Shown piece after piece: positions 958 through 40,186 of a stretch of DNA of 40,186 bases. Each line of letters begins with the position of its first letter. Within the stretch, counting starts at the first letter, position 1. The notes beneath the pieces were generated by a model. The model saw only the letters and a program-made list of their open reading frames with translations. It had not been told where the DNA came from and did no database searches. The position numbers were made by a program, and so were the translations under genes. The stretch is from a virus, in IMG/VR virus record IMGVR_UViG_3300023284_002520, positions 1 through 40,186 of that record; one strand, written 5' to 3'.

Positions 958-1770
958 CTAGACTGCAACCCTATAAGGCACGTTTTTAACAAATCTGCCT
1001 CGTAATCTCCTGGCTCTAAAGTGGTTTAATCTTCTAAAGAATCTACGACCATATCCCTGCTCCCATCTTTGAATATCACTATCTGACCAGATAAATGCGT
1101 CTTCATTGATGGTATCGTCAGAATTGTATCCTCTCTTTGCAATTGGATATAAAATACTACGTTCAGACAGTTCATTGTGATGATATCCATGAATGTGTTT
1201 GAATTCATGCATACCAACGTGTAATAATGGTTGTGTACCGAGCATTTTGAGAGTACCGTCTGTCCATTTTTCGCCTTCAGTATAATGAACATGATCAACT
1301 AAATATGCTGGTAGTGAATCACCAAATGGTGTAAAAAACATATTATCATTCCATTCTGTTACGCCATTTTTGGTTCCCTGAGGATGAAACAGATATGCGT
1401 GTGCAATAACCATTTTTCTACCACCAAAAACTTCTATGTCGTCAGTAAATCTAATTGTAAAATCACTCTTTGACTCATTTCTAACAAACCAATACTTTCG
1501 TGGAATAATAAAACCAATAGTTCTAAAAACTGCAGCAAAAGTACGCATCTGCCAATATCTATCAGCTATATCGGGAGTATAATTCAAAAATTTCCAAGTA
1601 AATATGGTTTTTTCTGCAGGATATTTGTATCTCCAATTTTCACGGCCAATATCTATTAACTCATTTTTAGATAACGGATCACCGTTTTCTGTCTGAAATT
1701 CAAAAGTTGGTTCTATAGCATCAAATTTAGGGTTATGTATCAATGCACAACGAATAGGCTCATCGAACAT
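958..1770 (-). CDS. Matrixin-like (M10 metzincin) zinc metalloprotease
   Basis: Exact HExxHxxGxxH motif (HEFKHIHGYHH, nt 1209..1177). Upstream VIAHAY resembles matrixin LAHAF. Downstream SILYP lies at the Met-turn position, and the C-terminal DSDIQRWEQGYG resembles matrixin DDIxGIQxLYG. Confidence 0.7.
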   Translation of the reverse strand: MFDEPIRCALIHNPKFDAIEPTFEFQTENGDPLSKNELIDIGRENWRYKYPAEKTIFTWKFLNYTPDIADRYWQMRTFAAVFRTIGFIIPRKYWFVRNESKSDFTIRFTDDIEVFGGRKMVIAHAYLFHPQGTKNGVTEWNDNMFFTPFGDSLPAYLVDHVHYTEGEKWTDGTLKMLGTQPLLHVGMHEFKHIHGYHHNELSERSILYPIAKRGYNSDDTINEDAFIWSDSDIQRWEQGYGRRFFRRLNHFRARRLRGRFVKNVPYRVAV

Positions 1771-3974: not shown

Positions 3975-5186
3975 CTAAAATGCCGTTATCTTGAATGCAC
4001 CGTCTTCGAAAGCTTCTTTCACATCAAATCTGATTAACAAATCAGTTTGATATAGACCACCAACTGTCAAGTCGAAATTCTCAAGTGTTAGATCCTCACG
4101 GAGTCCTACTACTTGTGCGACATCACGTTTTGTGATCATTACTGTGTTTTCAGCAATTTGTGGTGTTTCCCAAACGTTCTTCAATCCTAAACTAGCAGCC
4201 AAGCCGGAGTTATTCACTACGTCTTTGTTGTCAGTTGGTCCTAAGAGGAATCTAGACAAGAATGGATATGTACCACTTGCACCGGTCGATGTAGCTACTG
4301 CAGCAAATGCATCGGCTGGATGAATGAACATAGTGTCTGCTCTATTTCTCTGAGTTCCTGGGAATTTGGATCTTATCACGTTAGATAATGCTTCAAATTC
4401 CGCATGGACTGGTGTTGCTAGATCTAATACTGCTTTCGTGGCAGTGTTTGTAGTTGTGTCGGCTACAAGTCTATCAATAAGACGTTTGCCTGCTAAGTAG
4501 TAATACAAGTTGCCTGCATTTTTCAATGGTTGTTCTACTGCTAAGAAATTATTGTCTTTGACATCATTTCTGTTTACAGCGATGGTTCCCCTAAATGAGT
4601 TCTTGGTTGTTGAACAATCAAGCTCAATGGTTTCCATCTTACCACCGATTTGCACTGTACCACTCTTTGCACCTGCTTCCTTGTATATGTCGATTGAGAA
4701 AGCTGTACTAGCTTTGTCACCACCGACAGTATCAGTGTACTGTGTTTTTGGTACATTTACTTTTGGCGTGTCCATTTCAACAATTCTTGAATATTGTTTC
4801 CAATCACTCCAAGGTTCTGCACCCTCAATGATTTCGTCAACAATTTTCAGTGTTGATAATGTACCAGGTACGGCAATTGTTTCTCTTAATGGTTTGCCAC
4901 CAATTTGAGGATTTGTTTTTGCAATCTCACCCATACGGATGTTATAGTGATGAAACCATACTTCCGGTAAGTGTGGATTGATTTTCATGTCCTCCATTGA
5001 ACCGTCACTTTTTGCAAAGAAAACGTCTAATGGAGTTTCTCGAATTGGCTTCCAAAGATCATATGGTTCTCCAAATCTTTCCATGCGAGCTTCAGCACCA
5101 AGTTGTAAAGTTTCCCTTACATGTGCCAACTCCGTCATGTTCAAAAGTTTTGAACGAGACCATTGTGTTTTATCTCTGACAGTCAT
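3975..5186 (-). CDS. Major capsid protein (HK97-fold candidate)
   Basis: 403-aa ORF immediately after the protease, scaffold and decoration genes. Size, position and composition fit an HK97-like MCP. Confidence 0.65.
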   Translation of the reverse strand: MTVRDKTQWSRSKLLNMTELAHVRETLQLGAEARMERFGEPYDLWKPIRETPLDVFFAKSDGSMEDMKINPHLPEVWFHHYNIRMGEIAKTNPQIGGKPLRETIAVPGTLSTLKIVDEIIEGAEPWSDWKQYSRIVEMDTPKVNVPKTQYTDTVGGDKASTAFSIDIYKEAGAKSGTVQIGGKMETIELDCSTTKNSFRGTIAVNRNDVKDNNFLAVEQPLKNAGNLYYYLAGKRLIDRLVADTTTNTATKAVLDLATPVHAEFEALSNVIRSKFPGTQRNRADTMFIHPADAFAAVATSTGASGTYPFLSRFLLGPTDNKDVVNNSGLAASLGLKNVWETPQIAENTVMITKRDVAQVVGLREDLTLENFDLTVGGLYQTDLLIRFDVKEAFEDGAFKITAF

Positions 5187-6620: not shown

Positions 6621-8282
6621 CTACAGAATTTCTATTTTTGTACTTTTAACACCTGGATTTGCAGGTGGAATCCATTCACCACGCCAATACATTCCTAATG
6701 GATTTGTAACTACATAGGTAAATGCAATATTATCAGTTTCCCCAAGAATTACACCATGAGGTACAATAAAACACTCTCCACTATTATCACAGGGTTGTCC
6801 ATTCAGCATTTCGAATGACTCTGATCGTGGTGGACCTCCATTAATACTAACTCCGCTAATTGTATCATTTTTAATCGCTTCAATGATTTCAGGATCGGGT
6901 TCTAGATGTAAGAATTGAACTTGTTGTAATTCCTTGTTATAATCACCATCCATGACTTTACCACCTGTTTCATGCTGAGGATCGTGATTAATGTCAGAGC
7001 CTTTCAGTACGCCAGTTCTAGACAATCCATGAAGCTCGTCACCACTTAGCAATCTTCTGAACGGTTCACCTTCACCACGATGATCAGTAATTGCAACTTC
7101 ACTTGCACGAATCAATAACCATTTACCATTAGCTTCCTGTTTTTTTACGGCCTTAATATGATCTGGTGTTAGCCATGTAAATTCTTTTTTTAATTCTGAT
7201 ATTGTCTCACGTATTTTCAATGATGAATTATCCATGTCTAATTCGAATGTTAGTTTTTTGGTGGAAGCCACTTTTGGTTTAACAGATATAGACATATATG
7301 GTTCATCTTCGGGTTTGTTAAAGTTGTAATCTTTTTCTATAACATCGGGTAGAGTAGTATCAATATCAGTATGAATGGCGGGAATATCTAGCTTGAATCT
7401 ATCCGTTGTTTTTATCATGTCTTTAGGATCTTTTGCCGGCTTTGCTTGTACAATCATGTAAGGTTGTTCACCTGGTTTAGGACGGTTGTATTCTTTTTCG
7501 ATAGTATCCGGTAAGCTTGTATCAGTATCAGAATGATAAGTTGGAATATTTAGTTTTAATCCCTCTTTTAACAGGTCTTTGTAAATAACATTATGATCAC
7601 CTTGCAACGCATCAGCTTGTGTATTAACTCCAAAGTCCCAAGGTGTTGTTAAATCGCTCATGAAACCCTCTCTACCATGCATACTTGGTTGTGACTCTGG
7701 TTTGTTCGATGTACCTAACCAATTAGTTTGATCTTGATATATGTTTGGTCCTTTCCATCCCATACCGCTAGGACGTGGTGGATAACCAGAATCAAAAATT
7801 AATTCCGGATGAATTTTAGGTAACAAGTCAAGTCCGATAACTTGAGGTGGCCATTCATTTAAAATTGGTCCAGGTTCAGAAAATTCTCCAATAACAACAC
7901 GTGTTGCTTCCATATCTGGAATTCCTTCACCAACTAAAGCTTGATATCTTCTAAGAATATTTTCAACTTCTCTACGTGCAGTTTCTTTCATTAAAGACTC
8001 TCTTACCTCTGCAAGTGTTTGAGTATCATTATAATCAATAATTTCATTTATTTTAGAAAATGTGGCACGGGTTCTTCCCTCAACAGAATCAACATTAACC
8101 CTGTAATCTATTCCTCCACGAGTAACTATTTCATTATCCTGAAACTGGTTTGCGTTATCACCAAACAGACGAAAAGTGTCTTCTCCTTTTTTTTGTTTAA
8201 GTGATATCATTCGATCAGCTTTGCCACGTTCCCTAGACTCCCAAGCTTTTTTTGCACTTGCAGAATCTTCTTTAATTTTCAT
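6621..8282 (-). CDS. Prohead protease candidate (HK97 U35/S78-like C-terminal domain) with a long N-terminal extension
   Basis: C-terminal GSDINHD...GGKVMDG and ISGVSINGG resemble the His and Ser regions of HK97-type proteases. Located between portal and scaffold. ATGA overlap with the upstream gene. Confidence 0.45.
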   Translation of the reverse strand: MKIKEDSASAKKAWESRERGKADRMISLKQKKGEDTFRLFGDNANQFQDNEIVTRGGIDYRVNVDSVEGRTRATFSKINEIIDYNDTQTLAEVRESLMKETARREVENILRRYQALVGEGIPDMEATRVVIGEFSEPGPILNEWPPQVIGLDLLPKIHPELIFDSGYPPRPSGMGWKGPNIYQDQTNWLGTSNKPESQPSMHGREGFMSDLTTPWDFGVNTQADALQGDHNVIYKDLLKEGLKLNIPTYHSDTDTSLPDTIEKEYNRPKPGEQPYMIVQAKPAKDPKDMIKTTDRFKLDIPAIHTDIDTTLPDVIEKDYNFNKPEDEPYMSISVKPKVASTKKLTFELDMDNSSLKIRETISELKKEFTWLTPDHIKAVKKQEANGKWLLIRASEVAITDHRGEGEPFRRLLSGDELHGLSRTGVLKGSDINHDPQHETGGKVMDGDYNKELQQVQFLHLEPDPEIIEAIKNDTISGVSINGGPPRSESFEMLNGQPCDNSGECFIVPHGVILGETDNIAFTYVVTNPLGMYWRGEWIPPANPGVKSTKIEIL

Positions 8283-15753: not shown

Positions 15754-17604
15754 TTATTTCCTTATTCTTCCTATTTTATAAGCTGATGGGTCATAGGTCT
15801 GATCAGCTACCAGGTTGTAAATAATTGACATTACAGAGTCCGGTGGATGATTAAATTCTTTTTTCGCCTTCTGACGAGGATCATCTTCATCATCTTTCTT
15901 TTTAGGATCTAAATCCTTGCGGGTTAGATTACAAAGTTCATTGAGCAGCCAATCAGTCTCATACTCTCTATCTTTGCCCATTGGAATAATAAATTTAGTT
16001 AACTTCTTGAAAGGATCAGACTCGGCAGGTGTACTCCATGCAATAAAGTCTACAAAGTTTTGTAGTGTAGTTGTTTTATCAATTCGGAGATGAGCTTTAA
16101 CGGGACCTTTTTCATCTACCTCGGTTTTGTATTGTAGCTCTGGTTTAGTGGGATCACCATATGTCTGGCATGCCTTGAATTTACTTTTACCAATTCCCGT
16201 AATATGATCACCTTTAGTATCGTAACCACCATCTTGAATTAATGGTATTTGTGTTTGGCCGTATCCAATATCTCCAACACCTAAATCAACATTGTATTGA
16301 TTCTTACCAAACATATCGGCAATGTAATGAGCTTGCATAGCTTGATCTCCTGGATGGATGTCTGAAACTTTTCTTATCGCTGCTAATTGATAACGTCCAG
16401 TCTTTTGCCATTTAATAATTATACTCGCAATTGTTTCAGAAGCTTTTGGATGACTGCCGAAATCAACACCACCAAGAACTCTAATCGCTTGTTGATGTTT
16501 TGATTTTAATTTTTGCACTTCTATCGGAGATAATAGATATAGTTTGTAATCATAACAAGCTTTAACCATTTCCGGTGTAATTGGTCTTCTTTCCGCTCTG
16601 TAAAATCTAGCGAGTGTGTGAGATAAATAGATATTACGAGGATAATGTAACTTTTGATATTCTACCGATAGTTCCGGATGGGTATTATATTTTGTTATCG
16701 CATCATGGATGGTTAATGGAATGTGTGGAAATTGTTCTTGAGATAGATGATAGCCTCGATAGTTTTTATTTTCTGGTGCTTGTGCAATCCAATGGCCTTT
16801 TAGAATTGTGTCAAGCTCTTCCGGTGTGTTTAGAATGTCACCATTTGTTGCATGTCGTAGCTTGTTACGCCATCCTTGTTCTGGCCAAACTCTTTTTGTT
16901 GACGGGTCTGTATAATCCGTTTTATCATCATATTCCCACTCACGCTGATCAGTCTTTTGCCATTGTCTTTCATATTCTGAACCAGCTTCACCACCGATTC
17001 CAAACGACCAGCAATCTCCATGTGTTTTAGATAAAGTGTACATCGCAATAGTTTTGTATTGTTGATCCTGAGCTTGATCCTCATCAAAAATCATTACACG
17101 ATTTGCCTTTCCCTCAAAATAATGGTATTTGTTTTCGTCAGTTCCTAAGTAGATAAATGTACCGTTGAGCAACCTAACTCTTCTGATTGCAGCTCTACCG
17201 AAAGGTAAGTATTGTCGCAACAAAGGGTTTGCAAGAAACGTGTCATATCGAAGTCTTTGCTCACTGAAGGTAGAACGGTGTTCCTCGTCATCAGCACAGT
17301 AAGAGACTTCGGAGCCTGGATAACTAATCGCATACTTTGCCAACAAGTTTGCACAGTTAGTCGTTTTAAAGGTTTGTCTAGCTAATAGGCCACGAATGTT
17401 TGGATGATTGTCTAAAAGAATATCAATCCACATTGGAGCTAAATTAAAGGTTTGAGGAATGGCACCGATGGATGGCCTATATGTTGCAATGAATTCTAAT
17501 GAGTTTGTGGGACCTATTGGTAGTTTAGTTACGGTTAACTCTGGAAATCCAAATGAATCATCATCACGATCTAAACTATCCATATCGTTTACATCTCTGT
17601 TCAA
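15754..17604 (-). CDS. terL: Terminase large subunit (T4 gp17-like class)
   Basis: 616 aa. Walker A-like ARQTFKTT (compare gp17 SRQLGKTT), Walker B MIFDED, nuclease-region GGVDFGS. TTG start with SD AAGGAT. Confidence 0.8.
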   Translation of the reverse strand: MNRDVNDMDSLDRDDDSFGFPELTVTKLPIGPTNSLEFIATYRPSIGAIPQTFNLAPMWIDILLDNHPNIRGLLARQTFKTTNCANLLAKYAISYPGSEVSYCADDEEHRSTFSEQRLRYDTFLANPLLRQYLPFGRAAIRRVRLLNGTFIYLGTDENKYHYFEGKANRVMIFDEDQAQDQQYKTIAMYTLSKTHGDCWSFGIGGEAGSEYERQWQKTDQREWEYDDKTDYTDPSTKRVWPEQGWRNKLRHATNGDILNTPEELDTILKGHWIAQAPENKNYRGYHLSQEQFPHIPLTIHDAITKYNTHPELSVEYQKLHYPRNIYLSHTLARFYRAERRPITPEMVKACYDYKLYLLSPIEVQKLKSKHQQAIRVLGGVDFGSHPKASETIASIIIKWQKTGRYQLAAIRKVSDIHPGDQAMQAHYIADMFGKNQYNVDLGVGDIGYGQTQIPLIQDGGYDTKGDHITGIGKSKFKACQTYGDPTKPELQYKTEVDEKGPVKAHLRIDKTTTLQNFVDFIAWSTPAESDPFKKLTKFIIPMGKDREYETDWLLNELCNLTRKDLDPKKKDDEDDPRQKAKKEFNHPPDSVMSIIYNLVADQTYDPSAYKIGRIRK

Positions 17605-19458: not shown

Positions 19459-19563
19459 CTAGTCCTTACTCCTATGTTTTATTCTATCTAGGATTTTTTG
19501 TGTATGCCAATCTGCATATTTTTTAATCCTATGATTCATACCACAAATACAAGGATATCTCAT
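19459..19563 (-). CDS. Microprotein (34 aa, MRYPCICGMNHRIKKYADWHTQK...)
   Basis: Manual call. SD AGGAGTAAG upstream. Confidence 0.4.
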   Translation of the reverse strand: MRYPCICGMNHRIKKYADWHTQKILDRIKHRSKD

Positions 19564-19588
19564 TTACTTCTTACTCCTATGTTTTAAG

Positions 19589-19684
19589 TTAGTCATGTAT
19601 TTTTCTCCAACATATTCTACAATAAGTTGTATCCTTATGAGTAATTGTGGTATAATGTTTACATTCATTATCTAAGTTAGTCAA
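19589..19684 (-). CDS. Zinc microprotein (31 aa, TNLDNECKHYTTITHKDTTYCRICWRKIHD), paralog of 19681..19797
   Basis: Manual call. TTG start in a TTGA overlap. Shares the xNxECK N-terminus with the upstream ORF. Confidence 0.35.
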   Translation of the reverse strand: MTNLDNECKHYTTITHKDTTYCRICWRKIHD

Positions 19685-19797
19685 TCAAAAACACTCCAAG
19701 ATTTGTAAAGTAAACCACAAGCAGTACAAAAAATAGCGTTAGATATAGTTAACCAACTATGAATAACACACTTACATTCATTATTTACTGTCGTCAT
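19681..19797 (-). CDS. Zinc microprotein (38 aa, MTTVNNECKCVIHSW...FCTACG...)
   Basis: Manual call with ATGA overlap. Confidence 0.4.
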   Translation of the reverse strand: MTTVNNECKCVIHSWLTISNAIFCTACGLLYKSWSVFD

Positions 19798-19919
19798 TCT
19801 TTATTACCCATATCTCTTATACATTTCAGTATTCTATATTGAGTGAGTGTAATCTCTCCATGTCCTTTACATTGAGTATATTGTATATAATCCCATATTT
19901 TTTTTAGTTTTGTTATCAT
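19794..19919 (-). CDS. Microprotein (41 aa, MITKLKKIWDYIQYTQCKGHGE...)
   Basis: Manual call. The ATG lies 1 nt after the upstream TAG. Confidence 0.4.
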   Translation of the reverse strand: MITKLKKIWDYIQYTQCKGHGEITLTQYRILKCIRDMGNKE

Positions 19920-19920
19920 T

Positions 19921-20046
19921 CTATTTCTTCCTTATTACCTCAAAATCTTTTGGTGGTTTCTGATTCCAGTCTATTTTATTCTGTTTAACTACGGTTCTTA
20001 GAATTATATTATAGAGGAATTTTTCATCTGATCTTAATAGTCTCAT
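19921..20046 (-). CDS. Microprotein (41 aa, MRLLRSDEKFLYNIILRTVVKQ...)
   Basis: Manual call with ATGA overlap to the 66-aa ORF. Confidence 0.4.
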   Translation of the reverse strand: MRLLRSDEKFLYNIILRTVVKQNKIDWNQKPPKDFEVIRKK

Positions 20047-20243
20047 TTTAACAAACCCGTAAATTTTTTTAGAAATTCTTCTGGATTTAGATAACCTTGA
20101 TAGTGTGGTGTACGTATTTCAACTTTATAAGCTACGCCCTTTTTGTCTATCCAAATTCTAAATATGTAATCATCACCGTGTTTTAATAGAGTAATGAAAG
20201 CTTTCCCGTAATAATCAGGATCTTTATCTTTTTCTTCAGACAT
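20043..20243 (-). CDS. Hypothetical protein (66 aa)
   Basis: Track ORF with TAATG overlap upstream. Confidence 0.55.
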   Translation of the reverse strand: MSEEKDKDPDYYGKAFITLLKHGDDYIFRIWIDKKGVAYKVEIRTPHYQGYLNPEEFLKKFTGLLK

Positions 20244-20326
20244 TAATTAATCACCAAAATTACTAACGAAACTCCCAAGGCAAATATAGGAAAACCCCAA
20301 CGAATACATTCTTTGTAATCTGTCAA
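20243..20326 (-). CDS. Possible 27-aa membrane peptide (TDYKECIRWGFPIFALGVSLVILVIN)
   Basis: Manual call. TTG start in a TTGA overlap and TAATG overlap at the 3' end. Hydrophobic C-terminal half. Confidence 0.3.
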   Translation of the reverse strand: MTDYKECIRWGFPIFALGVSLVILVIN

Positions 20327-20445
20327 CTAGAAATATACTCCTTTAAGGCTTTTTGATATTCATCATAAACTTTATCTAATTTTAATTTTAAAGCATGATA
20401 TTGCTTAGTTTTCCTATCTAGTTTACTCTTTTTGTAATTTATCAT
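20323..20445 (-). CDS. Microprotein (40 aa, Lys-rich helical)
   Basis: Manual call with ATGA overlap. Confidence 0.4.
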   Translation of the reverse strand: MINYKKSKLDRKTKQYHALKLKLDKVYDEYQKALKEYISS

Positions 20446-20543
20446 TCTATTACATCATGTCCAGGTCTATATCCATTATTATGTACTAATTGATAATGAT
20501 TAATCTCTTGGCCACAACCGCACTTACAGGTCATTTTACCCAT
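20442..20543 (-). CDS. Cys/His microprotein (33 aa, MGKMTCKCGCGQEINHYQLVHNN...)
   Basis: Manual call with TAATG overlap. Confidence 0.4.
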   Translation of the reverse strand: MGKMTCKCGCGQEINHYQLVHNNGYRPGHDVIE

Positions 20544-20671
20544 TATTCTAACTCCAAGTTAATCACACCTTTAGTTTGCTTCACAATTATAGTATTACGC
20601 TTTTTACAATGTTTACATTTTACATGTCGTTTTTCTCTTCTTTGAATTGTTCTAGTTTCTATAAAGCTCAT
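20543..20671 (-). CDS. Basic zinc microprotein (42 aa, ...KRHVKCKHCKKRN...)
   Basis: Manual call. SD GGTGGG upstream. Confidence 0.4.
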   Translation of the reverse strand: MSFIETRTIQRREKRHVKCKHCKKRNTIIVKQTKGVINLELE

Positions 20672-20672
20672 T

Positions 20673-20801
20673 TTACCCACCTTTACAGCCCTCTCCTATG
20701 TGATCTGTAACCTTTAACGGAATTAAAGGACCAGCTTGTAACCCACATTTAGAACATTTTCCATTTGCTACGTAAAACTCTTTTGAATGTAAATTACCCA
20801 A
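20673..20801 (-). CDS. Zinc microprotein (42 aa, GNLHSKEFYVANGKCSKCG...), first gene of the minus-strand unit
   Basis: Manual call. TTG start 7 nt after GGAG. Confidence 0.35.
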   Translation of the reverse strand: MGNLHSKEFYVANGKCSKCGLQAGPLIPLKVTDHIGEGCKGG

Positions 20802-20880: not shown

Positions 20881-21294
20881 ATGGTATTAATAAAAAACCC
20901 AAATAACATCGGCTATGTAGCGTTACAACCTGATCCTCATTGGGAACCTATCAAATCCGCTTTCGATATAGAATATTACAAGTTTAATTATCTTCGAGGA
21001 TTGAAACCCCTACAAGAAGAGAGAAAACTAATTTTTGTTGTATCCACTACGAAAGAAATAGAAGAGAAATATAAAATTAAGCCTATTCCGTTAGATAAAT
21101 ATGAGCATCCGGAAACTAATGCTGTCTATGTGTTTGGTCCAGACAAATATGCAGAGTTTGTAAAAGATATTAAAATGGTACATTTAGAGGGCGACTATAT
21201 CACAATACCTATAGATAATAAAGAGATGCCGTTGTTTAGCTATCAAGCAGTATGTATAATAATTTGGGACAGAAGGATGCGAGGATTTGAATGA
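20881..21294 (+). CDS. SPOUT (TrmL/SpoU)-like protein candidate
   Basis: 137 aa. AVYVFGPDKY...ITIPIDNKEMPLFSYQAVCIIIWDR parallels TrmL DYLMFGPETRG...IRIPM...SMNLSNAVSVVVYEA. Remote similarity judged by eye only. Confidence 0.3.
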   Translation: MVLIKNPNNIGYVALQPDPHWEPIKSAFDIEYYKFNYLRGLKPLQEERKLIFVVSTTKEIEEKYKIKPIPLDKYEHPETNAVYVFGPDKYAEFVKDIKMVHLEGDYITIPIDNKEMPLFSYQAVCIIIWDRRMRGFE

Positions 21295-21312: not shown

Positions 21313-21849
21313 TTGATTAACGAGAAACAACTTGAATATAAAGACAATGGGATTGTGGTTATTCAAAAGAAAAGCCTAACCTGGAGACAGATAACAAATT
21401 ATAAAAATCAACTTAGCGGTAAAATTGCTAATTATTATAATCAAGTTCAAGAGTGTGAAGATAAAATTAACTCATTTAAACAAAAAATCGAATCGTTAGA
21501 ATTAGAATTAAAAAAGTTAAATTCAAAAGAAGTTGAATCCATTATATGGCAACAAAGAGAAGATGAAAAAATAGCACACAAACGAGCATTAGATTTACTC
21601 CGTGAACATATTGGAATTGAAGCTTATACAGAACTTATGGAAAAACATAGGATTTTTTGGAAAACTAATAACGGTATGAGGTATAAAATGACTGATGTAG
21701 GTCAAGTTTACCGACATGAAAATAAAAAATGGTATAAACTTTGTATTATTCGTCCTAAATCATTACCATTACCTGACACCATTCTAGCTATTCTAACATC
21801 TGTAAAAAATAATCCTAGAAAATTTCCAAATGTTAGGAGAAGGAGGTGA
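21313..21849 (+). CDS. Hypothetical coiled-coil protein with basic C-terminus
   Basis: 178-aa track ORF. TTG start 6 nt after GGGAG. Confidence 0.5.
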   Translation: MINEKQLEYKDNGIVVIQKKSLTWRQITNYKNQLSGKIANYYNQVQECEDKINSFKQKIESLELELKKLNSKEVESIIWQQREDEKIAHKRALDLLREHIGIEAYTELMEKHRIFWKTNNGMRYKMTDVGQVYRHENKKWYKLCIIRPKSLPLPDTILAILTSVKNNPRKFPNVRRRR

Positions 21850-21853
21850 TTTT

Positions 21854-22060
21854 ATGGTTAAGGTAAAACAAATGAGTAAAAAAGGTGATGAACGAGAAGA
21901 TATGCCAAAACAACAATTACTAACTCTATTAGAAAAACTCGGTAAAAATAAACACTTCTTAGTAAATGCTGAAACAAACACAATCATTAAAGATCATTCT
22001 GAGATTACAGAAGATATGGCAATAACAATCATGCCAGTTGTATCAGGAGGAAATATGTAA
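21854..22060 (+). CDS. ThiS/MoaD/SAMP-like ubiquitin-like (beta-grasp) protein, C-terminus ...MPVVSGG-NM
   Basis: The real start is ATG 21854, directly after GGAGGTGAT. The track start at 21830 lies upstream of that SD. 68 aa whose pattern matches ThiS/MoaD (LLxLLExLG...VNxxxI...EDxxIxIxPxVSGG). Confidence 0.55.
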   Translation: MVKVKQMSKKGDEREDMPKQQLLTLLEKLGKNKHFLVNAETNTIIKDHSEITEDMAITIMPVVSGGNM

Positions 22061-22261
22061 ATGACTAAAACACAGATAAACAAGAAATGGTTAGTACAAT
22101 ACGTGATGTCTGAAAAACACGTGAGTAACTTTGACTATTGGAGCTTTTGGTTCATACATGACATCAAGGCAAAGATGTGGAAGAAATATGGTGTCGTTGG
22201 TTTTCTATGGATAGAGATCAAACAACTTCTTGCGTGTATTGGATTAGTGCCTAAAATATAA
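22061..22261 (+). CDS. Hypothetical protein, Trp-rich with hydrophobic C-terminus
   Basis: 66-aa track ORF. SD AGGAGG is supplied by the GG codons of the upstream gene. Confidence 0.5.
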   Translation: MTKTQINKKWLVQYVMSEKHVSNFDYWSFWFIHDIKAKMWKKYGVVGFLWIEIKQLLACIGLVPKI

Positions 22262-22464
22262 TGCTGCCAGTTAGTGAGGCATACAAGCGTAAAGGTAGAA
22301 GAGAATCTAGACTGCCTGACTTTAGAAAAAAACCTGACTATGGAACAAAAACAAAGCTTCCGACTGAATTAAAAACTAAGAAGGTTTGTTTCATATGTGG
22401 TAGAAAAGCCGTAACAACTTTTAAGGAAGATTTTAGATGTGAGACACACCAGGCTTATGAGTGA
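22261..22464 (+). CDS. Basic zinc-binding protein (CFIC...C..H)
   Basis: 67-aa track ORF. Confidence 0.5.
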   Translation: MLPVSEAYKRKGRRESRLPDFRKKPDYGTKTKLPTELKTKKVCFICGRKAVTTFKEDFRCETHQAYE

Positions 22465-22870
22465 AATTGAAGACAATGAAATAATTGAGGTTGCAATAGA
22501 CGATGTAAAGCTAGATCCTGACAATCCTAACAAGATGACTCAACGTGAAGAGGACGGCCTTGAAGCTTCTATGAAAGGTAAATCTGGTTATGCGAATTTA
22601 ATAGCTGTTGATGCTAACATGATTATTGTAAATGGAGAGCATCGATACAACAAACTAAAAGCTAGTGGCCGTACAAAAATCAAAGTCATTAAACTAAATA
22701 AAATTAAAACCGCTACTGAAAGAAAATTTGAAAGACAAATTCAGAATAAGCTACATGGTAGATTCGATAAAAAGATGGAGCTTGAAGAATATAAGGAATT
22801 TTTAGAAAAGAAGCTTTTACCGGACTTGGCACACAAATTAGGTAGTAATGAGGACGAATTCATTGCATAA
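22457..22870 (+). CDS. ParB-like nuclease (ParB N-terminal) domain protein
   Basis: IEVAIDDVKLDPDNPN...IIVNGEHRY pattern. ATG 22457 overlaps the upstream stop. Ends at TAA 22868..22870, in frame with the methylase sequence. Confidence 0.6.
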   Translation: MSEIEDNEIIEVAIDDVKLDPDNPNKMTQREEDGLEASMKGKSGYANLIAVDANMIIVNGEHRYNKLKASGRTKIKVIKLNKIKTATERKFERQIQNKLHGRFDKKMELEEYKEFLEKKLLPDLAHKLGSNEDEFIA

Positions 22871-22987
22871 CTTGAAGCTGCATTCGGTGTAGCTAAGAAT
22901 CTGGACCAAGTACCTGAGAAGGTTAACACTCGTACTAAATTTGGTGACATATGGGAGCTGGGAGAGCATAGAGTAGTAGTCGGTGAT

Positions 22988-23572
22988 GTGTTCAAAGAAG
23001 AATCAATGGAAAAGCTTATCGGTACAGGCAAACAACCTAGATTGATTTTAACTGATCCTCCATACGACATGAAAGAATATGATTATTTCAAGCCGTTTTT
23101 TGAAGCTCAACAAAACATAGAGGTTTTAATCATGATGGATGATCACGGTAGTAAGGAATTATGCCTAAGATATCATAAATATTTTGTGGGTAATTTTGTA
23201 CTTGTATTTAATGCTCCCAGTAAATTCCCTAATCAACCAATGAATTCACATAGATTGATATGCCATTATCGTAAAGGCAGAACCAACTTTCAAAACCTAC
23301 ATGATGCATTCGGTACTGTACATAATATGGTACTGGCCAAGACGGGACTAATAAAACAAGAGAAACCGATAGAACTGCCGAAGAGATTCATTATACACTA
23401 TACAAGACTTGGTGAAATAGTACTGGATTTGTTTGGTGGATCTGGCAGTACACTAATTGCATGTGAATCTGCAGGACGTGTATGTTATACTATGGAGATT
23501 GACCCTAAACATGTTGACTATATTATACAAAGATGGGAAGATTTGACTCATAAAGAAGCAATTAAGGTTTAG
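22988..23572 (+). CDS. DNA methyltransferase (N6A/N4C class, DPPY) with truncated start. Conserved sequence extends upstream to 22871 without a start codon
   Basis: TDPPY at 23054..23065 and FGGSGST near the C-terminus. The in-frame upstream segment encodes TKFGDIWELGEHRVVVGD, typical of ParB-methylase fusions. Confidence 0.6.
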   Translation: MFKEESMEKLIGTGKQPRLILTDPPYDMKEYDYFKPFFEAQQNIEVLIMMDDHGSKELCLRYHKYFVGNFVLVFNAPSKFPNQPMNSHRLICHYRKGRTNFQNLHDAFGTVHNMVLAKTGLIKQEKPIELPKRFIIHYTRLGEIVLDLFGGSGSTLIACESAGRVCYTMEIDPKHVDYIIQRWEDLTHKEAIKV

Positions 23573-27015: not shown

Positions 27016-27315
27016 GTGAGAAAATCTAGATTGAAATATAGACTTAATGATCTTAAAAGGAAAAAAAAGAGAATTAATTTTAAAGGTAAATTAATAGGAT
27101 TGGAAAAAGAGCCTAGAATTGGTATTTGTTCCAAATGTGGTAAATCTGTAAAAAAAGGAGAGATAAAAAGAACTAATTTACACCATTTAAAATATGATCC
27201 TAAAAATCCATTAAATCATACAATAGAATTATGTGTTGGATGCCATAATAAAATTCATCCAGAAAAATATGTAAATAGAACTTTGAAAATAAGGAAGAAA
27301 AATCAACATGGGTGA
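27016..27315 (+). CDS. HNH endonuclease
   Basis: CSKCG...NLHHLKYDPKNPLNHTIELCVGCHNKIH. Confidence 0.65.
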   Translation: MRKSRLKYRLNDLKRKKKRINFKGKLIGLEKEPRIGICSKCGKSVKKGEIKRTNLHHLKYDPKNPLNHTIELCVGCHNKIHPEKYVNRTLKIRKKNQHG

Positions 27316-28039
27316 AAAAACCTCAATTGAGTGGGCCGATTCAACACTTAACACAGCTTGGGGCTGCACAAAAGTAAGTGCTGGGTGTGAAAATTGCTAC
27401 ATGTTCAGATTATCAAAGATTTTTGGTAAAAATGCTGAAAACCCAAAACCTAGGGAAATGAAGAATATTTTAAGAGACTTGAAGAAATTCAGAGATCAAA
27501 AGAGAATTATATTTTTAAATTCCATGACAGACACCTTTCATGAGAATTTTTCAAATGAATTAATTAATGAATGGTTTGATCTGTTTGAAGCTCAAGAGCA
27601 TGAATTTATAATTTTGACTAAGAGAATTAACAGAGCCTACAATTATTTTAAAACCAGGGAAGTACCAAAAAATTGTTGGATAGGAACAAGTATTGAGAAC
27701 AAAGCTTGTTTACATAGACTAACTAAACTTAAAATGATTGATGCACCCATACTTTTTGTTAGCTTTGAACCTTTGCTTGAGGGACTGGGAAAGATTGATC
27801 TTGAGGGTATCTCATGGGTCATTGTCGGTGGAGAATCTGATTACCGTAATCCGAGACCTTTCAGTGTTGAGTGGGCGAGGGAAATTAGAGATCAATGCCG
27901 AGAATCTAGCATCCCTTTTTTCTACAAACAGTCAGGCGGTACTAGAAAAATTAAAGGAACATGGGGTAGTAATGAAATTGATGGCCAAAAACATCTAGAA
28001 ATGCCGATATTATTAGCAACAAAACAAAGTACGTTGTGA
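27308..28039 (+). CDS. Phage Gp37/Gp68 family (DUF5131) three-Cys-motif protein
   Basis: The N-terminal TSIEWADSTLNTAWGCTKVSAGCENCY is the family signature. SD AGGAAG. Confidence 0.65.
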   Translation: MGEKTSIEWADSTLNTAWGCTKVSAGCENCYMFRLSKIFGKNAENPKPREMKNILRDLKKFRDQKRIIFLNSMTDTFHENFSNELINEWFDLFEAQEHEFIILTKRINRAYNYFKTREVPKNCWIGTSIENKACLHRLTKLKMIDAPILFVSFEPLLEGLGKIDLEGISWVIVGGESDYRNPRPFSVEWAREIRDQCRESSIPFFYKQSGGTRKIKGTWGSNEIDGQKHLEMPILLATKQSTL

Positions 28040-28095
28040 TGGGAATGATGAAAAATTTTAGCTTACTTGATGCTAAATCCTGTAGTCTCTGACCC

Positions 28096-28455
28096 TCACA
28101 TATTAATTATAAGGTTAGGGCGAATATAAACGGCAAGTGTGCCTTTTGGGATATTTTGTTGTGCACCATGACAATCCTCACATAACTCGATTGTATCTTT
28201 TAACATATCATCATCATGATATACAATATGATGGATTTGTGTATGGTTAACACTATTACAAAATGATATTTGGCAAACTCCTTTTTTGATAGGTTTGTCC
28301 ATTTTGATCATTTTTCCTTTATACTCAAATTGACTTAGATTATAATTATGATATTTTCTATAGTGTTTTTGATGTTTTGATATATTTTCGAACCTTTGGC
28401 CACATTTATGACAAAGATATGGTAAATTCCAATATATCTCAGGAACAGATTTCAT
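28096..28455 (-). CDS. C2H2 zinc finger fused to an HNH endonuclease
   Basis: YLCHKCGQRFENISKHQKHYRKYH fits C-x2-C-x12-H-x4-H. The C-terminal QIHHIVYHDDDMLKDTIELCEDCH is paralogous to 27016..27315. Confidence 0.6.
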   Translation of the reverse strand: MKSVPEIYWNLPYLCHKCGQRFENISKHQKHYRKYHNYNLSQFEYKGKMIKMDKPIKKGVCQISFCNSVNHTQIHHIVYHDDDMLKDTIELCEDCHGAQQNIPKGTLAVYIRPNLIINM

Positions 28456-39615: not shown

Positions 39616-40185
39616 TTAAGCCACCATATAACCTGTTGGTGCTAAGATTGTTGCACGAAATCTATATTTCACCAATGTTTCGTCACCAGCTAGTTTTATC
39701 ATTCTTGCAATTTTTGTTTTAGTAGAAGTGGTCAGAACTTTTGGCACGCTTTCTGTGTTTGTGTGTGCGTGTAAAAATACAGCTTCTATGTGTTGGCCGT
39801 TAGCTTGCATTTTGTAAATGTTATCAAGTTTTTCTGCGGATGTACCATCCAAGTCAGATCTTTTTGCATTCATTTCTCCAATCATCAAACCAGAAAATTC
39901 ACCTCGTACTTGAAACGGTATTCCACGTCCTCTTTCAGTGGATTTAGTTAGATAGGAAATTGTGTTGAATCCTTCATCGATGACAACATTACTAACTTCT
40001 GTAAAAATATAATCAGCTCCTGGTGGAGTATCCATGTTTGCCGAAGCTGATAAATCAAAACTTAATACTCCAGAAAAGCCATGAAAACCTTCCGATGTTC
40101 CTGTTTTAATTTGAATTAACGTTAAGTTTAATGTTCTAATGAATTCCGGTTTAGCATTTTCAAAATTATCCTCACGTTGCCACAC
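39616..40185 (-). CDS. Same wrap-around structural protein, 3' part (TAA stop at 39618..39616)
   Basis: Open to the window end. The leading M in the track is really GTG = Val at an internal position. In frame with 1..539 through the 144-bp repeat. Confidence 0.7.
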   Translation of the reverse strand: MWQREDNFENAKPEFIRTLNLTLIQIKTGTSEGFHGFSGVLSFDLSASANMDTPPGADYIFTEVSNVVIDEGFNTISYLTKSTERGRGIPFQVRGEFSGLMIGEMNAKRSDLDGTSAEKLDNIYKMQANGQHIEAVFLHAHTNTESVPKVLTTSTKTKIARMIKLAGDETLVKYRFRATILAPTGYMVA

Positions 40186-40186
40186 T
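40043..40186. repeat. Terminal direct repeat, copy 2 (identical to 1..144)
   Basis: Direct comparison of both window ends. Confidence 0.95.

What the first reader, a model, noticed from the sequence alone, without database searches (positions are those of the whole stretch)
21854..22060. Virus-encoded ThiS/MoaD/SAMP-like ubiquitin-like protein ending in Gly-Gly plus a two-residue tail
The 68-aa ORF sits directly after GGAGGTGAT. Its sequence is MVKVKQMSKKGDEREDMPKQQLLTLLEKLGKNKHFLVNAETNTIIKDHSEITEDMAITIMPVVSGGNM. It follows the ThiS/MoaD beta-grasp pattern: an N-terminal strand, an LLxLLExLG helix, VNxxxI, and an acidic turn followed by IxIxPxVSGG. The di-glycine is followed by NM, like precursor forms that need C-terminal processing before activation. 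I see no E1-like (ThiF/MoeB/UbaA), E2-like or JAB/JAMM gene in the genome. A functional Ubl would therefore have to use host sulfur-carrier or sampylation/urmylation-type enzymes, or act as a decoy for them. A free-standing early-gene Ubl of this type is not a standard phage feature.
Basis: partly seen in the sequence, partly recalled or inferred. Interest (0 to 1): 0.7.

Follow-up and report, generated by a model that had tools for sequence, protein, structure and literature searches.

The report
Virus-encoded ThiS/MoaD-type ubiquitin-like protein
A complete 40-kb tailed-virus genome, probably of an archaeal virus, carries a conserved gene for a tiny ubiquitin-like protein with an invariant Gly-Gly end, always paired with an unknown 178-aa protein, and has no activating enzyme of its own, so it most likely plugs into the host's protein-tagging or sulfur-carrier machinery.

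Summary
ORF 21854..22060 (+) encodes the stated 68-aa protein behind GGAGGTGAT. It is a real gene: 28 homolog clusters, dN/dS 0.06-0.36 with synonymous sites near saturation. AlphaFold2 (pLDDT 82.5) gives a beta-grasp fold. All top PDB fold matches are ubiquitin-like, best TM with the sulfur carrier TtuB (0.64-0.71). 17 of 18 members hit Pfam ThiS, all below threshold, with Gly-Gly at the profile end.

Gly-Gly is invariant in all 31 relatives. It uses six codon pairs and persists where it cannot be a ribosome-binding site. The 0-2-residue tail is the SD-to-start spacer, so it is not a designed propeptide.

New findings: the Ubl always follows, translationally coupled, an orphan 178-aa coiled-coil protein. 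This pair is the only thing shared by eight otherwise unrelated virus contexts. Relatives encode TFB and a crenarchaeal-type SSB, so hosts are probably archaea. The genome is complete (144-bp terminal repeat) and no E1, E2 or JAB was detected.

Best reading: a viral SAMP/Urm1-like modifier charged by the host E1. This is not tested. It is a new variant of a known kind.

The parts
21854..22060 (+). Gene for the 68-aa ThiS/MoaD-type beta-grasp ubiquitin-like protein (66-aa core ending in Gly-Gly, plus Asn-Met tail)
   Evidence: ORF and translation. Pfam ThiS E=0.0025, residues 11-66 aligned to profile 12-76/76. AF2 pLDDT 82.5 with strands 2-8, 11-17, helix 19-29, strands 34-38 and 56-61. Foldseek hits are all Ub-like. 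dN/dS is 0.06-0.36.
21842..21850 (+). Shine-Dalgarno GGAGGTGAT of the Ubl gene; it contains the TGA stop (21847-21849) of the upstream partner gene, giving translational coupling
   Evidence: Sequence. The same arrangement occurs in L001, L005, L006, L010, L011 and L012.
22046..22051 (+). Gly-Gly codons (GGA GGA). They encode the invariant C-terminal di-glycine and also form a GGAGGA Shine-Dalgarno 9 nt before the next gene's ATG.
   Evidence: Relatives use GGT GGT, GGG GGT, GGA GGT, GGT GGC and GGT GGA. In L012 and L004 the GG codons are not near a start codon, yet they are kept.
22052..22057 (+). Two-residue tail (Asn-Met) after Gly-Gly; the SD-to-start spacer of the downstream gene
   Evidence: Tail lengths over 28 clusters: 0 aa in 6, 1 aa in 1, 2 aa in 15, 3 aa in 1, 9 aa in 1, 13-48 aa in 4. 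The ATGA start/stop overlap is read directly in L011. The Ser-x (x = Q/I/L/V) tails of the other clusters are compatible with it.
21313..21849 (+). Conserved 178-aa partner gene (orphan). It has an N-terminal beta-hairpin, a long helical hairpin (about residues 24-100) and a small C-terminal beta/alpha domain with invariant H99, H112 and C144.
   Evidence: 19 homolog clusters, alignment A2. It sits directly upstream of the Ubl in all 8 distinct contexts. AF2 pLDDT 79.6. No structural or family match.
22061..22261 (+). Downstream 66-aa ORF whose ribosome-binding site is the Ubl's GG codons. It is not conserved among relatives and is probably not part of the functional module.
   Evidence: No Pfam or PADLOC hit. 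Relatives carry a different downstream gene: an approximately 80-aa family in L001, L006, L010 and L011.

Best explanation
ORF 21854..22060 is a functional gene for a minimal beta-grasp ubiquitin-like protein (66-aa core). It belongs to the ThiS/MoaD/TtuB/CysO-SAMP-Urm1 superfamily, and its C-terminal Gly-Gly is its working end.

It is the second gene of a translationally coupled two-gene cassette. The first gene encodes a 178-aa coiled-coil protein. This cassette travels among otherwise unrelated, probably archaeal, tailed viruses.

The complete genome has no detectable E1, E2 or JAB gene. I therefore infer the following steps:
1. The protein is made together with its partner.
2. Where a short tail follows Gly-Gly, a host JAMM-type or other peptidase trims it.
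3. The host's single E1-like enzyme (UbaA/MoeB/Uba4 type) adenylates the Gly-Gly carboxylate.
4. The protein is then attached to lysines of target proteins, in the E2/E3-independent manner of archaeal SAMPs and Urm1.
5. The 178-aa protein acts as its bound adaptor, target or chaperone.

The likely purpose is to redirect host (or viral) proteins during takeover, for example towards the proteasome.

What is shown: gene reality, fold, superfamily-level similarity, invariance of Gly-Gly, the cassette, and the lack of detectable viral enzymes. What is inferred: activation by a host E1, tail trimming, conjugation, and the partner's role.

The short tail itself is best explained as the spacer between the GG codons, which double as the next gene's Shine-Dalgarno, and that gene's start codon.
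For: Fold and family:
- AF2 pLDDT is 82.5 with a beta-beta-alpha-beta-beta topology and a flexible C-terminus.
- All top Foldseek PDB hits are ubiquitin-like. The highest TM-scores are with TtuB: 5gha_H 0.67/0.71 and 5ztb_E 0.64/0.66.
- Pfam ThiS is hit by 17 of 18 family members (best E 3.6e-4), with GG at the profile end.
- NCBIfam Urm1_like is hit by 14 of 18 members and moaD_arch reaches E 0.0011.
- The family profile aligns to the exact C-termini of CysO (3dwg_C) and a ThiS/MoaD protein (4n6e_B): '..TILPAVAGG'.
- hhalign gives CysO 71%, TtuB 30% over 45 columns end to end, and ThiS 6%. Shuffled versions of these three references reach at most 1.8%; the highest shuffle of any of the eight references is 5.2%.

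Gly-Gly under protein-level selection:
- It is invariant in 28 clusters and in the loci.
- Six different codon pairs are used.
- It is kept in L012, where the downstream SD lies in the 9-aa tail, and in L004, where a 48-aa tail follows.
- dS is near saturation and dN/dS is 0.06-0.36.

Cassette:
- The 178-aa gene and the Ubl are the only families shared by all 8 contexts.
- The partner's stop codon lies inside the Ubl's SD.
- Seven further pairs of Ubl and partner clusters have identical longest-contig lengths: 3125, 1950, 2155, 1276, 1002, 941 and 937 bp.

No viral enzymes:
- Pfam scans of all non-shadow ORFs of at least 90 aa found no ThiF, UQ_con, JAB or sulfurtransferase.
- The genome is complete.

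Archaeal setting:
- A relative, L011, encodes TFB (E 8.7e-15 to Pyrococcus TFB).
- L010, whose Ubl is 76% identical to the window's, encodes a crenarchaeal-type SSB (E 1.9e-9 to S. solfataricus SSB).
- There is no excess of sigma-70 promoters or intrinsic terminators, and no peptidoglycan hydrolase was detected.

E1-only conjugation of ThiS/MoaD-type proteins is established for Haloferax SAMPs and for Urm1 (established knowledge; PMC2948915, PMC9574740).
Against: - No sequence hit reaches a curated family threshold. ThiS scores 18.8 bits against 22.5; Urm1_like scores 12.8 against 70.
- All Foldseek E-values are 0.02 or higher.
- Similarity to SAMP1, SAMP2, Urm1 and ubiquitin themselves is at noise level in hhalign. 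The nearest sequences are sulfur carriers (TtuB, CysO), not proven modifiers.
- 22 of 28 clusters carry residues after GG, and the virus encodes no recognisable peptidase for them. A free GG end therefore depends on an unproven host activity.
- The archaeal host is inferred from relatives that share only this cassette with the window. The window itself carries no archaeal hallmark gene.
- The partner has no recognisable fold, so its role is a guess.
- No experiment or complex prediction was possible.
Confidence: 0.42

Rival explanations
1. Decoy or inhibitor. The viral Ubl mimics the host SAMP/Urm1/sulfur carrier. It ties up the host E1, JAMM peptidase or Ubl receptors, possibly together with the 178-aa partner. 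This would blunt a host Ubl-dependent stress, proteasome or antiviral response. No productive conjugation would be needed.
For: - No viral E1, E2 or JAB was detected.
- The gene lies in the non-structural takeover region, next to methyltransferases.
- The cassette is exchanged among unrelated viruses, as counter-defence genes often are.
- Tails after GG are tolerated in 22 of 28 clusters, which fits a binder better than a substrate.
- Borg elements of archaea carry many putative deSAMPylases and one SAMP, read as a response to SAMP-based host defence (PMC12660748).
- Bacterial Ubl conjugation is antiviral (Bil; 10.1101/2023.09.04.556158).
Against: - No archaeal Ubl-based antiviral system has been demonstrated.
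- PADLOC gives no hit.
- An invariant GG and strong purifying selection fit a substrate equally well.
- A decoy would be expected to track host Ubl sequences, yet similarity to any cellular Ubl is remote.
Confidence: 0.2
2. Auxiliary sulfur carrier. The host E1 or rhodanese converts the protein to a C-terminal thiocarboxylate. It then supplies sulfur to host pathways that the virus wants boosted, such as tRNA 2-thiolation (TtuB/Urm1 type), cysteine (CysO type), molybdopterin or thiamine.
For: - The closest sequence and structure relatives are sulfur carriers: TtuB (TM 0.64-0.71; hhalign 30% over 45 columns) and CysO (C-terminal motif).
- One source annotates a homolog as 'molybdopterin converting factor small subunit'.
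- CysO- and QbsE-type carriers are known with C-terminal extensions removed by JAMM peptidases (my own knowledge; not checked in a paper here).
Against: - The complete genome has no sulfurtransferase, PP-loop ATPase, MoaE, ThiG, CysM, rhodanese or cysteine desulfurase.
- The obligatory partner is a coiled-coil orphan unlike any sulfur-transfer enzyme.
- Supplying only an extra carrier gives little obvious benefit.
- The cassette sits among DNA-modification and regulatory genes, not metabolic genes.
Confidence: 0.15
3. Non-covalent beta-grasp subunit. The protein acts only as a small adaptor bound to the 178-aa protein, for example in a regulatory or DNA-associated complex. Gly-Gly would be kept as a flexible end plus ribosome-binding site, with no C-terminal chemistry.
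For: - Tight translational coupling with the partner and strict co-occurrence.
- Tails of 1-48 residues are tolerated.
- The GG codons do form the SD of the next gene in most contexts.
- The partner's C-terminal domain gives weak winged-helix hints (HTH_45 E 0.027-0.078).
Against: - GG is kept in L012 and L004, where it is not an SD, despite saturated synonymous divergence.
- The whole C-terminal motif (TI[MI]P.V.GG) matches that of active carriers.
- Beta-grasp adaptor domains without C-terminal chemistry generally lose the di-glycine (Iyer et al. 2006, PMC1779556).
Confidence: 0.18
4. Artefact. The ORF's Gly-Gly exists only because GGAGGA is the downstream gene's Shine-Dalgarno, and the ThiS resemblance is chance.
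For: - In six of eight contexts the GG codons form GGAGG or GGTGG 3-9 nt before the next start.
- All family hits are below threshold.
Against: - The amino acids are invariant while the codons vary at both third positions, changing GGAGG to the weaker GGTGG.
- GG is retained without an adjacent start in L012 and L004.
- The upstream gene's SD-encoding C-terminus varies at the amino-acid level (RRRR, RHRR, RGRR, RRVR and others), which shows what SD-only constraint looks like.
- The fold prediction and 17 of 18 ThiS hits are independent of the GG codons.
Confidence: 0.03

Closest known systems
ThiS/MoaD-family sulfur carriers (Pfam PF02597), especially TtuB of Thermus and CysO of Mycobacterium
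   Same: About 65 aa, with a beta-grasp fold and a C-terminal '..TI.P.V.GG' motif aligned to the very end. They give the best structural TM-scores (TtuB) and the best profile hits (CysO, TtuB, ThiS).
   Different: Those are cellular proteins encoded next to, or working with, dedicated E1-like and sulfur-acceptor enzymes. Here there are none in the genome. The host element is a virus, the partner is an orphan coiled-coil protein, and scores stay below every curated threshold.
Archaeal protein modifiers SAMP1-3 (Haloferax) and archaeal/eukaryotic Urm1
   Same: Small ThiS/MoaD-type beta-grasp proteins with a GG end that need only one E1 (UbaA/Uba4) and no E2 or E3. That is exactly what a virus lacking all enzymes could exploit. 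The setting is probably archaeal. NCBIfam Urm1_like is the most frequent hit (14 of 18 members).
   Different: No significant direct sequence similarity to SAMP1, SAMP2 or Urm1. Conjugation is not shown. Most viral copies carry a short tail, whereas SAMPs and Urm1 end at GG.
[quoted passage not shown]
   Same: This is the one long-known Ubl of prokaryotic viruses. It is ThiS/MoaD-related with a conserved C-terminal glycine (PMC1779556). Three of 18 members give weak Lambda_tail_I hits.
   Different: TAPI is a fusion to a second domain through a Gly-rich linker. It sits in the tail-assembly cluster and is flanked by a JAB peptidase. The present protein is free-standing, lies in the non-structural region, and has no JAB nearby.
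SAMP encoded by Lilac Borg, and the Borg deSAMPylases (extrachromosomal elements of Methanoperedens)
   Same: [quoted passage not shown] It is interpreted as interplay with host sampylation (PMC12660748).
   Different: Borgs are huge elements that also encode many JAMM peptidases. Here a 40-kb tailed virus carries only the Ubl plus an orphan partner, as a conserved two-gene cassette.
Bacterial antiviral Ubl systems (Bil, CBASS Cap2/Cap3, Bub operons)
   Same: Prokaryotic beta-grasp Ubls conjugated through a C-terminal glycine in virus-host conflict.
   Different: Those are host-encoded operons with their own E1, E2 and JAB. None is present here and PADLOC finds nothing.
Ubiquitin genes of eukaryotic viruses (baculovirus v-ubi, pestivirus inserts, giant viruses)
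   Same: The virus brings the modifier and relies on host enzymes. These are the only viral structural matches in BFVD.
   Different: Those are true ubiquitins captured from eukaryotic hosts. TM-scores here are only about 0.5, and the sequence class is ThiS/MoaD, not ubiquitin.

Membership tests
ThiS/MoaD superfamily (Pfam PF02597, sulfur-carrier-type Ubl) | Beta-grasp fold (beta-beta-alpha-beta-beta) of about 65-90 residues | tested here: met
   The AF2 model has pLDDT 82.5 with strands 2-8, 11-17, helix 19-29, strands 34-38 and 56-61. All top Foldseek PDB hits are Ub-like, and TtuB gives TM 0.64-0.71.
ThiS/MoaD superfamily (Pfam PF02597, sulfur-carrier-type Ubl) | C-terminal Gly-Gly at the end of the last strand's flexible tail, conserved across the family | tested here: met
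   GG is invariant in 28 clusters and in the loci. It aligns to profile positions 75-76 of 76 and to the last residues of CysO, 4n6e_B, TtuB and ThiS.
ThiS/MoaD superfamily (Pfam PF02597, sulfur-carrier-type Ubl) | Sequence score at or above the curated gathering threshold | tested here: not met
   The window protein scores 18.8 bits against a 22.5 cut-off. 17 of 18 members hit the family but the best E-value is only 3.6e-4. The profile against PDB gives E 0.6-1.3.
ThiS/MoaD superfamily (Pfam PF02597, sulfur-carrier-type Ubl) | Works with an E1-like adenylating enzyme (ThiF/MoeB) and a sulfur acceptor enzyme, usually encoded nearby | tested here: not met
   No ThiF, MoeB, MoaE, ThiG, CysM, TtuA or rhodanese was found in any ORF of at least 90 aa of the complete genome. 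Host enzymes cannot be examined.
ThiS/MoaD superfamily (Pfam PF02597, sulfur-carrier-type Ubl) | Formation of a C-terminal acyl-adenylate or thiocarboxylate | not testable with these tools
   This needs biochemistry or mass spectrometry.
SAMP / Urm1-type protein modifiers | Archaeal (or eukaryotic) cellular setting with a single non-canonical E1 (UbaA/Uba4) | tested here: inconclusive
   Relatives carrying the cassette encode TFB and a crenarchaeal-type SSB. The window has no hallmark gene of its own. No provirus was found in GTDB genomes.
SAMP / Urm1-type protein modifiers | Recognisable sequence similarity to SAMP1-3 or Urm1 | tested here: not met
   NCBIfam Urm1_like scores 12.8 bits against a cut-off of 70; the best family E-value is 0.0099. 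hhalign to SAMP1, SAMP2 and Urm1 gives about 1% or less, at the level of shuffled controls.
SAMP / Urm1-type protein modifiers | Isopeptide conjugation of the GG carboxylate to target lysines | not testable with these tools
   This needs proteomics of infected or co-expressing cells.
[quoted passage not shown] | Ubl domain fused via a Gly-rich linker to a C-terminal domain, located in the tail-assembly cluster beside TAPK (JAB/NlpC-P60) and TAPJ | tested here: not met
   The protein is free-standing at 68 aa. Its neighbours are the 178-aa orphan and a ParB-methyltransferase. There is no JAB or NlpC/P60 in the genome. Only 3 of 18 members hit Lambda_tail_I weakly (E 0.016). The definition is taken from PMC1779556.
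Bacterial Ubl defence operons (Bil, Bub, CBASS type II) | Ubl encoded in an operon with E1, E2 and JAB/DUB genes | tested here: not met
   No such genes were found. PADLOC gives no hit for the Ubl.
Ubiquitin proper | 76-aa ubiquitin sequence and fold with an LRLRGG tail | tested here: not met
   Ubiquitin structures match only at TM about 0.5. hhalign probability is 0.9%.

The most novel reading that the evidence does not exclude
A set of archaeal tailed viruses carries its own SAMP/Urm1-like modifier together with a dedicated specificity protein (the 178-aa orphan). The host's single E1 charges the viral modifier. The pair then tags chosen host proteins, for destruction or rewiring, during takeover. 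This would be the first virus-encoded conjugation modifier of the prokaryotic (ThiS/MoaD) type. It would parallel viral ubiquitin hijacking in eukaryotes. The orphan partner would represent a new kind of E3-like or adaptor protein.
Probability: 0.27. Interest if true: 0.82.

Novelty: new variant of a known kind. Interest (0 to 1): 0.6.

Why it matters
Ubiquitin-like tagging is thought to have grown out of ThiS/MoaD-type sulfur carriers. Archaea still use such proteins (SAMPs, Urm1) as one-enzyme protein tags.

Eukaryotic viruses routinely steal or subvert ubiquitin. For prokaryotic viruses the only classical case is the lambda tail-assembly Ubl, which has its own JAB peptidase.

Here a free-standing Ubl with an invariant Gly-Gly is strongly conserved and paired with an unknown protein. 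The pair is exchanged among otherwise unrelated, probably archaeal, viruses. This suggests that manipulation of host Ubl pathways by viruses predates eukaryotes.

The cassette offers a compact two-gene handle to test that idea. It could also reveal a new partner class for Ubls.

If the function turns out to be ordinary sulfur transfer or plain binding, the finding reduces to a new small viral gene family.

Tried and rejected
- **Known phage element?** No DNA or protein match for the region, the Ubl, the partner, the 403-aa ORF 3975..5186 or the 553-aa ORF 6621..8282 (presumed capsid and portal, by position only) in GenBank phages. None in IMG/VR. The large terminase is only about 25% identical to Bacillus and Haloarcula virus terminases.
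- **Provirus or host search** in 185,579 GTDB genomes with the Ubl and partner profiles found nothing. The host is therefore not identified directly. No tRNA genes are present.
- **Is the partner an E1, E2, RWD or JAB protein?** The AF2 model has no meaningful PDB match (TMq below 0.2). The profile against PDB gives only coiled-coil noise. Isolated C-terminal domains give no UQ_con, RWD or JAB hit, only weak winged-helix hints. PADLOC PbeC and LmuB hits are coiled-coil matches. Rejected.
- **My hunch that the upstream 137-aa ORF (20881..21294) is SPOUT-like** found no support in Pfam, PHROGs or PDB. That ORF is also not conserved with the cassette. Dropped.
- **SD-only explanation of GG** is rejected (see rivals), but its true half is kept.
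- **DUF5131 (27308..28039) as a possible sulfur-chemistry partner** is not linked. It is absent from all related contexts.
- **The 76-aa upstream start (21830)** is rejected on homolog N-termini.
- **Literature.** They found no description of a free-standing GG-terminated Ubl in a phage or archaeal tailed virus. One search was wasted because 'ThiS' matched the word 'this'.
- **Look-up of the window's own contig record** failed.
Full report
**1. Observation**

The ORF is exactly as described.
- ATG is at 21854 and TAA at 22058-22060.
- It encodes 68 aa: MVKVKQMSKKGDEREDMPKQQLLTLLEKLGKNKHFLVNAETNTIIKDHSEITEDMAITIMPVVSGGNM.
- GGAGGTGAT lies at 21842-21850.
- The TGA stop of the upstream 178-aa ORF (21313..21849) lies inside that Shine-Dalgarno, so the two genes are translationally coupled.
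- A longer 76-aa form from ATG 21830 is what a gene caller produced (P0001). Homologs start at MVKV/MTKV/LVKV with ATG or TTG, and the N-terminal strand is conserved. I therefore accept 21854 as the start.

A C-terminal GG alone is not remarkable: 2 of 123 ORFs of at least 50 aa in the window end in GG plus 0-3 residues.

The window carries an exact 144-bp terminal direct repeat. It is therefore a complete viral genome of about 40.0 kb. A large terminase lies at 15754..17604 (phrog_675).

**2. It is a real, constrained gene**

- The 5.8-billion-protein search found 11 homologs.
- Exhaustive phmmer over 1.84 billion representatives added three more and nothing else credible.
- A profile search brought the family to 28 clusters.
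- Across eight distinct DNA contexts, pairwise dN/dS is 0.06-0.36, and synonymous differences are near or beyond saturation (pS 0.5-0.8).

**3. Fold and family**

Structure:
- AlphaFold2 with the family alignment gives pLDDT 82.5. The topology is strand 2-8, strand 11-17, helix 19-29, strand 34-38, strand 56-61, with a disordered end at residues 66-68. This is the classic beta-grasp.
- The top 50 Foldseek PDB matches are almost all ubiquitin-like or other beta-grasp-type domains (Ddi1 UBL, kindlin and FERM F1 subdomains, UBX, ISG15, ubiquitin, PB1 and CIDE-N).
- The best TM-scores belong to the sulfur carrier TtuB: 5gha_H 0.67/0.71 and 5ztb_E 0.64/0.66.
- No E-value is better than 0.018.
- In the viral structure library only eukaryotic-virus ubiquitins and a few unannotated proteins appear, at TM about 0.5.

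Sequence:
- Pfam ThiS is hit at E 0.0025 (18.8 bits, cut-off 22.5). Residues 11-66 align to profile positions 12-76 of 76, so GG falls on the profile's terminal GG.
- 17 of 18 family members hit ThiS independently (best E 3.6e-4), and 3 of 18 touch Lambda_tail_I.
- In NCBIfam, 14 of 18 hit Urm1_like, 6 hit moaD and 2 hit moaD_arch (best E 0.0011). All are far below the cut-offs.
- The family profile aligns to the exact C-termini of M. tuberculosis CysO and a ThiS/MoaD protein: 'DSVTILPAVAGG' and 'DTLTILPAVAGG' against viral 'DQTITIIPAVAGG'. E-values are 0.6-1.2.
- hhalign of the profile against single reference sequences gives CysO 71%, TtuB 30% (45 columns, end to end) and ThiS 6%. Shuffled versions of these three references reach at most 1.8%; the highest shuffle of any of the eight references is 5.2% (Urm1). 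SAMP1, SAMP2, Urm1, MoaD and ubiquitin are at noise level. Only the C-terminal 17 residues of CysO are printed in a tool output. For TtuB, one search shows the matched range only.

Conclusion: superfamily membership is well supported by convergent weak evidence plus the fold. Membership of any curated family is not met.

**4. The Gly-Gly and the tail**

GG is invariant in every one of the 28 clusters and in the loci sequences.

Tail lengths after GG:

| Tail length | Clusters |
|---|---|
| none | 6 |
| 1 aa | 1 |
| 2 aa | 15 (13 are Ser-x) |
| 3 aa | 1 |
| 9 aa | 1 |
| 13-48 aa | 4 |

It is half true.
- In six of eight contexts the GG codons form GGAGG or GGTGG 3-9 nt before the next gene's start.
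- In L011 the tail runs into an ATGA start/stop overlap with the next gene (GGT GGT TCT CAA TGA). The Ser-x tails with x = Q, I, L or V in the other clusters are compatible with the same 'NNA TGA' arrangement, but I did not read their DNA.
- The tail is thus the SD-to-start spacer, not a designed propeptide.

But protein-level selection on GG is clear.
- Six codon pairs are used: GGA GGA, GGT GGT, GGG GGT, GGA GGT, GGT GGC and GGT GGA. Both third positions vary, which turns GGAGG into the weaker GGTGG.
- In L012 the downstream SD (GAGAGGAG) lies inside a 9-aa tail, and GG sits about 38 nt before the start.
- In L004 a 48-aa read-through tail follows, with no nearby start.
- By contrast, the partner's SD-encoding C-terminus does vary in amino acids (RRRR, RHRR, RGRR, RRVR, RRRG).

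**5. Context: a two-gene cassette**

- The 178-aa ORF has 19 homolog clusters.
- It sits directly upstream of the Ubl in all eight distinct contexts: the window, L001, L004, L005, L006, L010, L011 and L012.
- Seven further pairs of Ubl and partner clusters have matching longest-contig lengths.
- All-against-all BLAST of every ORF in the window and in up to 18 kb of each related locus shows one clear result. These two genes are the only families shared by all contexts. One downstream gene of about 80 aa is shared by four contexts, and almost nothing else is shared.
- The partner model (pLDDT 79.6) has a beta-hairpin, a long helical hairpin and a small beta/alpha domain with invariant H99, H112 and C144.
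- The partner matches nothing in the PDB by fold (TMq below 0.2) or by profile. It does not match Pfam either, even as an isolated C-terminal domain.

**6. No viral enzymes**

Pfam scans of all non-shadow ORFs of at least 90 aa found the following:
- N6_N4 methyltransferase
- DUF5131
- DUF3560
- a Peptidase_M10-like protein
- Laminin_G_3
- cement-protein hints

PHROGs additionally identified a ParB-N domain and a second methyltransferase.

There is no ThiF/E1, UQ_con/E2, JAB/MPN or sulfurtransferase. Most proteins of this virus hit nothing at all, so a very divergent enzyme cannot be excluded.

**7. Host domain**

- Relatives carrying the cassette encode archaeal hallmark genes.
  - L011 has a 311-aa TFB (best hits Pyrococcus TFB 1d3u_B and 1ais_B, E about 1e-14).
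  - L010 has a single-OB SSB closest to Sulfolobus solfataricus SSB (E 1.9e-9, followed by RPA and hSSB1 but no bacterial SSB). Its Ubl is 76% identical to the window's.
  - L006 has a weak Hjc hit.
- In the window there is no excess of sigma-70-like promoters (66 against 74 expected) or intrinsic terminators (2 against 5.8 expected). No peptidoglycan hydrolase was detected.
- One source sample belongs to a marine metagenome compilation.
- I rate an archaeal host at about 70-75%. The lineage is unknown. Low-GC Nitrososphaeria is only a guess.

**8. Mechanism**

Established background: ThiS/MoaD-type proteins are activated at the GG carboxylate by an E1-like adenylating enzyme. In archaea (SAMPs) and for Urm1, the same single E1 suffices for lysine conjugation without an E2 or E3 (PMC2948915, PMC9574740). 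JAMM peptidases remove SAMPs; that they also cut linear extensions after GG is my own knowledge, not checked in a paper here.

Inference: a virus that brings only the modifier, plus a co-translated binding partner, can exploit exactly such a system.

I therefore favour a viral SAMP/Urm1-like modifier charged by the host E1 (confidence 0.42 for the whole chain). The ranking of readings is:

| Reading | Confidence |
|---|---|
| Viral modifier charged by host E1 | 0.42 |
| Decoy or inhibitor of host Ubl machinery | 0.20 |
| Non-covalent subunit of a complex with the partner | 0.18 |
| Auxiliary sulfur carrier | 0.15 |
| SD-only artefact | 0.03 |

Sub-claims stand higher. I give about 0.9 for the beta-grasp fold and ThiS/MoaD superfamily, and about 0.75 for a functionally required GG end.

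**9. Comparison with what is known**

- The classical prokaryotic-virus Ubl is lambda/T1 TAPI. It is fused to a second domain, sits in the tail cluster and is flanked by a JAB peptidase (PMC1779556). None of these features holds here.
- Lilac Borg encodes a SAMP, and Borgs encode many putative deSAMPylases (PMC12660748).
- The Asgard virus Nidhogg encodes E1-like ThiF proteins (10.1101/2021.07.29.454249).
- Two large surveys of archaeal viruses that I checked do not mention ubiquitin, MoaD or sulfur carriers.
- Bil, CBASS and Bub are host operons with their own enzymes, and PADLOC finds nothing here.

**10. Verdict**

It is a new, compact family of the ThiS/MoaD class in a new setting: a free-standing gene, obligatorily paired with an orphan protein, in probably archaeal tailed viruses without any cognate enzyme. 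I classify it as a new variant of a known kind, with interest 0.6. Function is untested. The decisive work is complex prediction with host E1 and JAMM proteins, host assignment, and mass spectrometry for activated or conjugated forms.

Noticed in passing
window 1-144 and 40043-40186: An exact 144-bp terminal direct repeat. The window is a complete (circularly closed or DTR) viral genome of about 40,042 unique bp.
   Followed up: partly
window 22439-23572 (+), stop at 22868-22870: The ParB-N domain ORF and the N6/N4 DNA methyltransferase ORF are one continuous reading frame (phrog_498 architecture), interrupted by a single in-frame TAA. The canonical 'GDIWELGEHRVVVGD' motif follows the stop. 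This could be a nonsense mutation, read-through or an assembly error.
   Followed up: partly
L011 4619-5554; L010 9771-10055; L006 8413-8718: Viruses that share only the Ubl cassette with the window encode a TFB/TFIIB homolog (E 8.7e-15 to Pyrococcus TFB), a crenarchaeal-type single-OB SSB (E 1.9e-9 to S. solfataricus SSB) and a weak Hjc-like protein. These mark them as archaeal viruses.
   Followed up: yes
window 21313-22060 versus L001, L004, L005, L006, L010, L011, L012: The 178-aa gene and the Ubl gene are the only gene families shared by all eight genomic contexts. The flanking genes show no detectable similarity. The pair therefore behaves as a mobile or exceptionally conserved cassette.
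   Followed up: yes
L004 435-455; L005 about 1637-1660: G/C palindromes sit right at or after the Ubl gene end: GGGGGTTCTACCCCC in L004, which straddles the GG codons and opens the 48-aa tail, and GGGGGGACCCCCCC in L005. Four clusters with long tails start with Ser-Thr/Asp-Pro/Glu. L004 is the only one of these with DNA in hand, so whether the other three carry the palindrome is unknown. This may be a hairpin element or terminator inserted after the gene.
   Followed up: no
window 19459-20801 (- strand): A run of about ten very small ORFs (33-45 aa), several with CxxC...CxxC zinc-ribbon patterns. They are transcribed divergently from the Ubl operon. Similar tiny Cys-rich ORFs follow the cassette in L012 and L005.
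   Followed up: no
window 27016-28455: A DUF5131 (phage Gp37/Gp68) gene at 27308..28039 has an N-terminal Cys-x6-Cys-x2-Cys motif. It is flanked by two HNH-like small ORFs: 27016..27315 (+) and 28096..28455 (-).
   Followed up: no
window 958-1770 (-): A Peptidase_M10 (matrixin)-like zinc metalloprotease (E 9.8e-9) is the only hydrolase-like hit. No recognisable peptidoglycan hydrolase or holin was found in the genome, which is consistent with a host lacking murein.
   Followed up: no
window 1-40186: The virus lineage is very remote. The 403-aa ORF at 3975..5186 and the 553-aa ORF at 6621..8282, which I took by position and size to be capsid and portal candidates (neither has a family hit), have no match in GenBank phages. 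The terminase has no relative in IMG/VR and is only about 25% identical to Bacillus and Haloarcula virus terminases in GenBank.
   Followed up: partly
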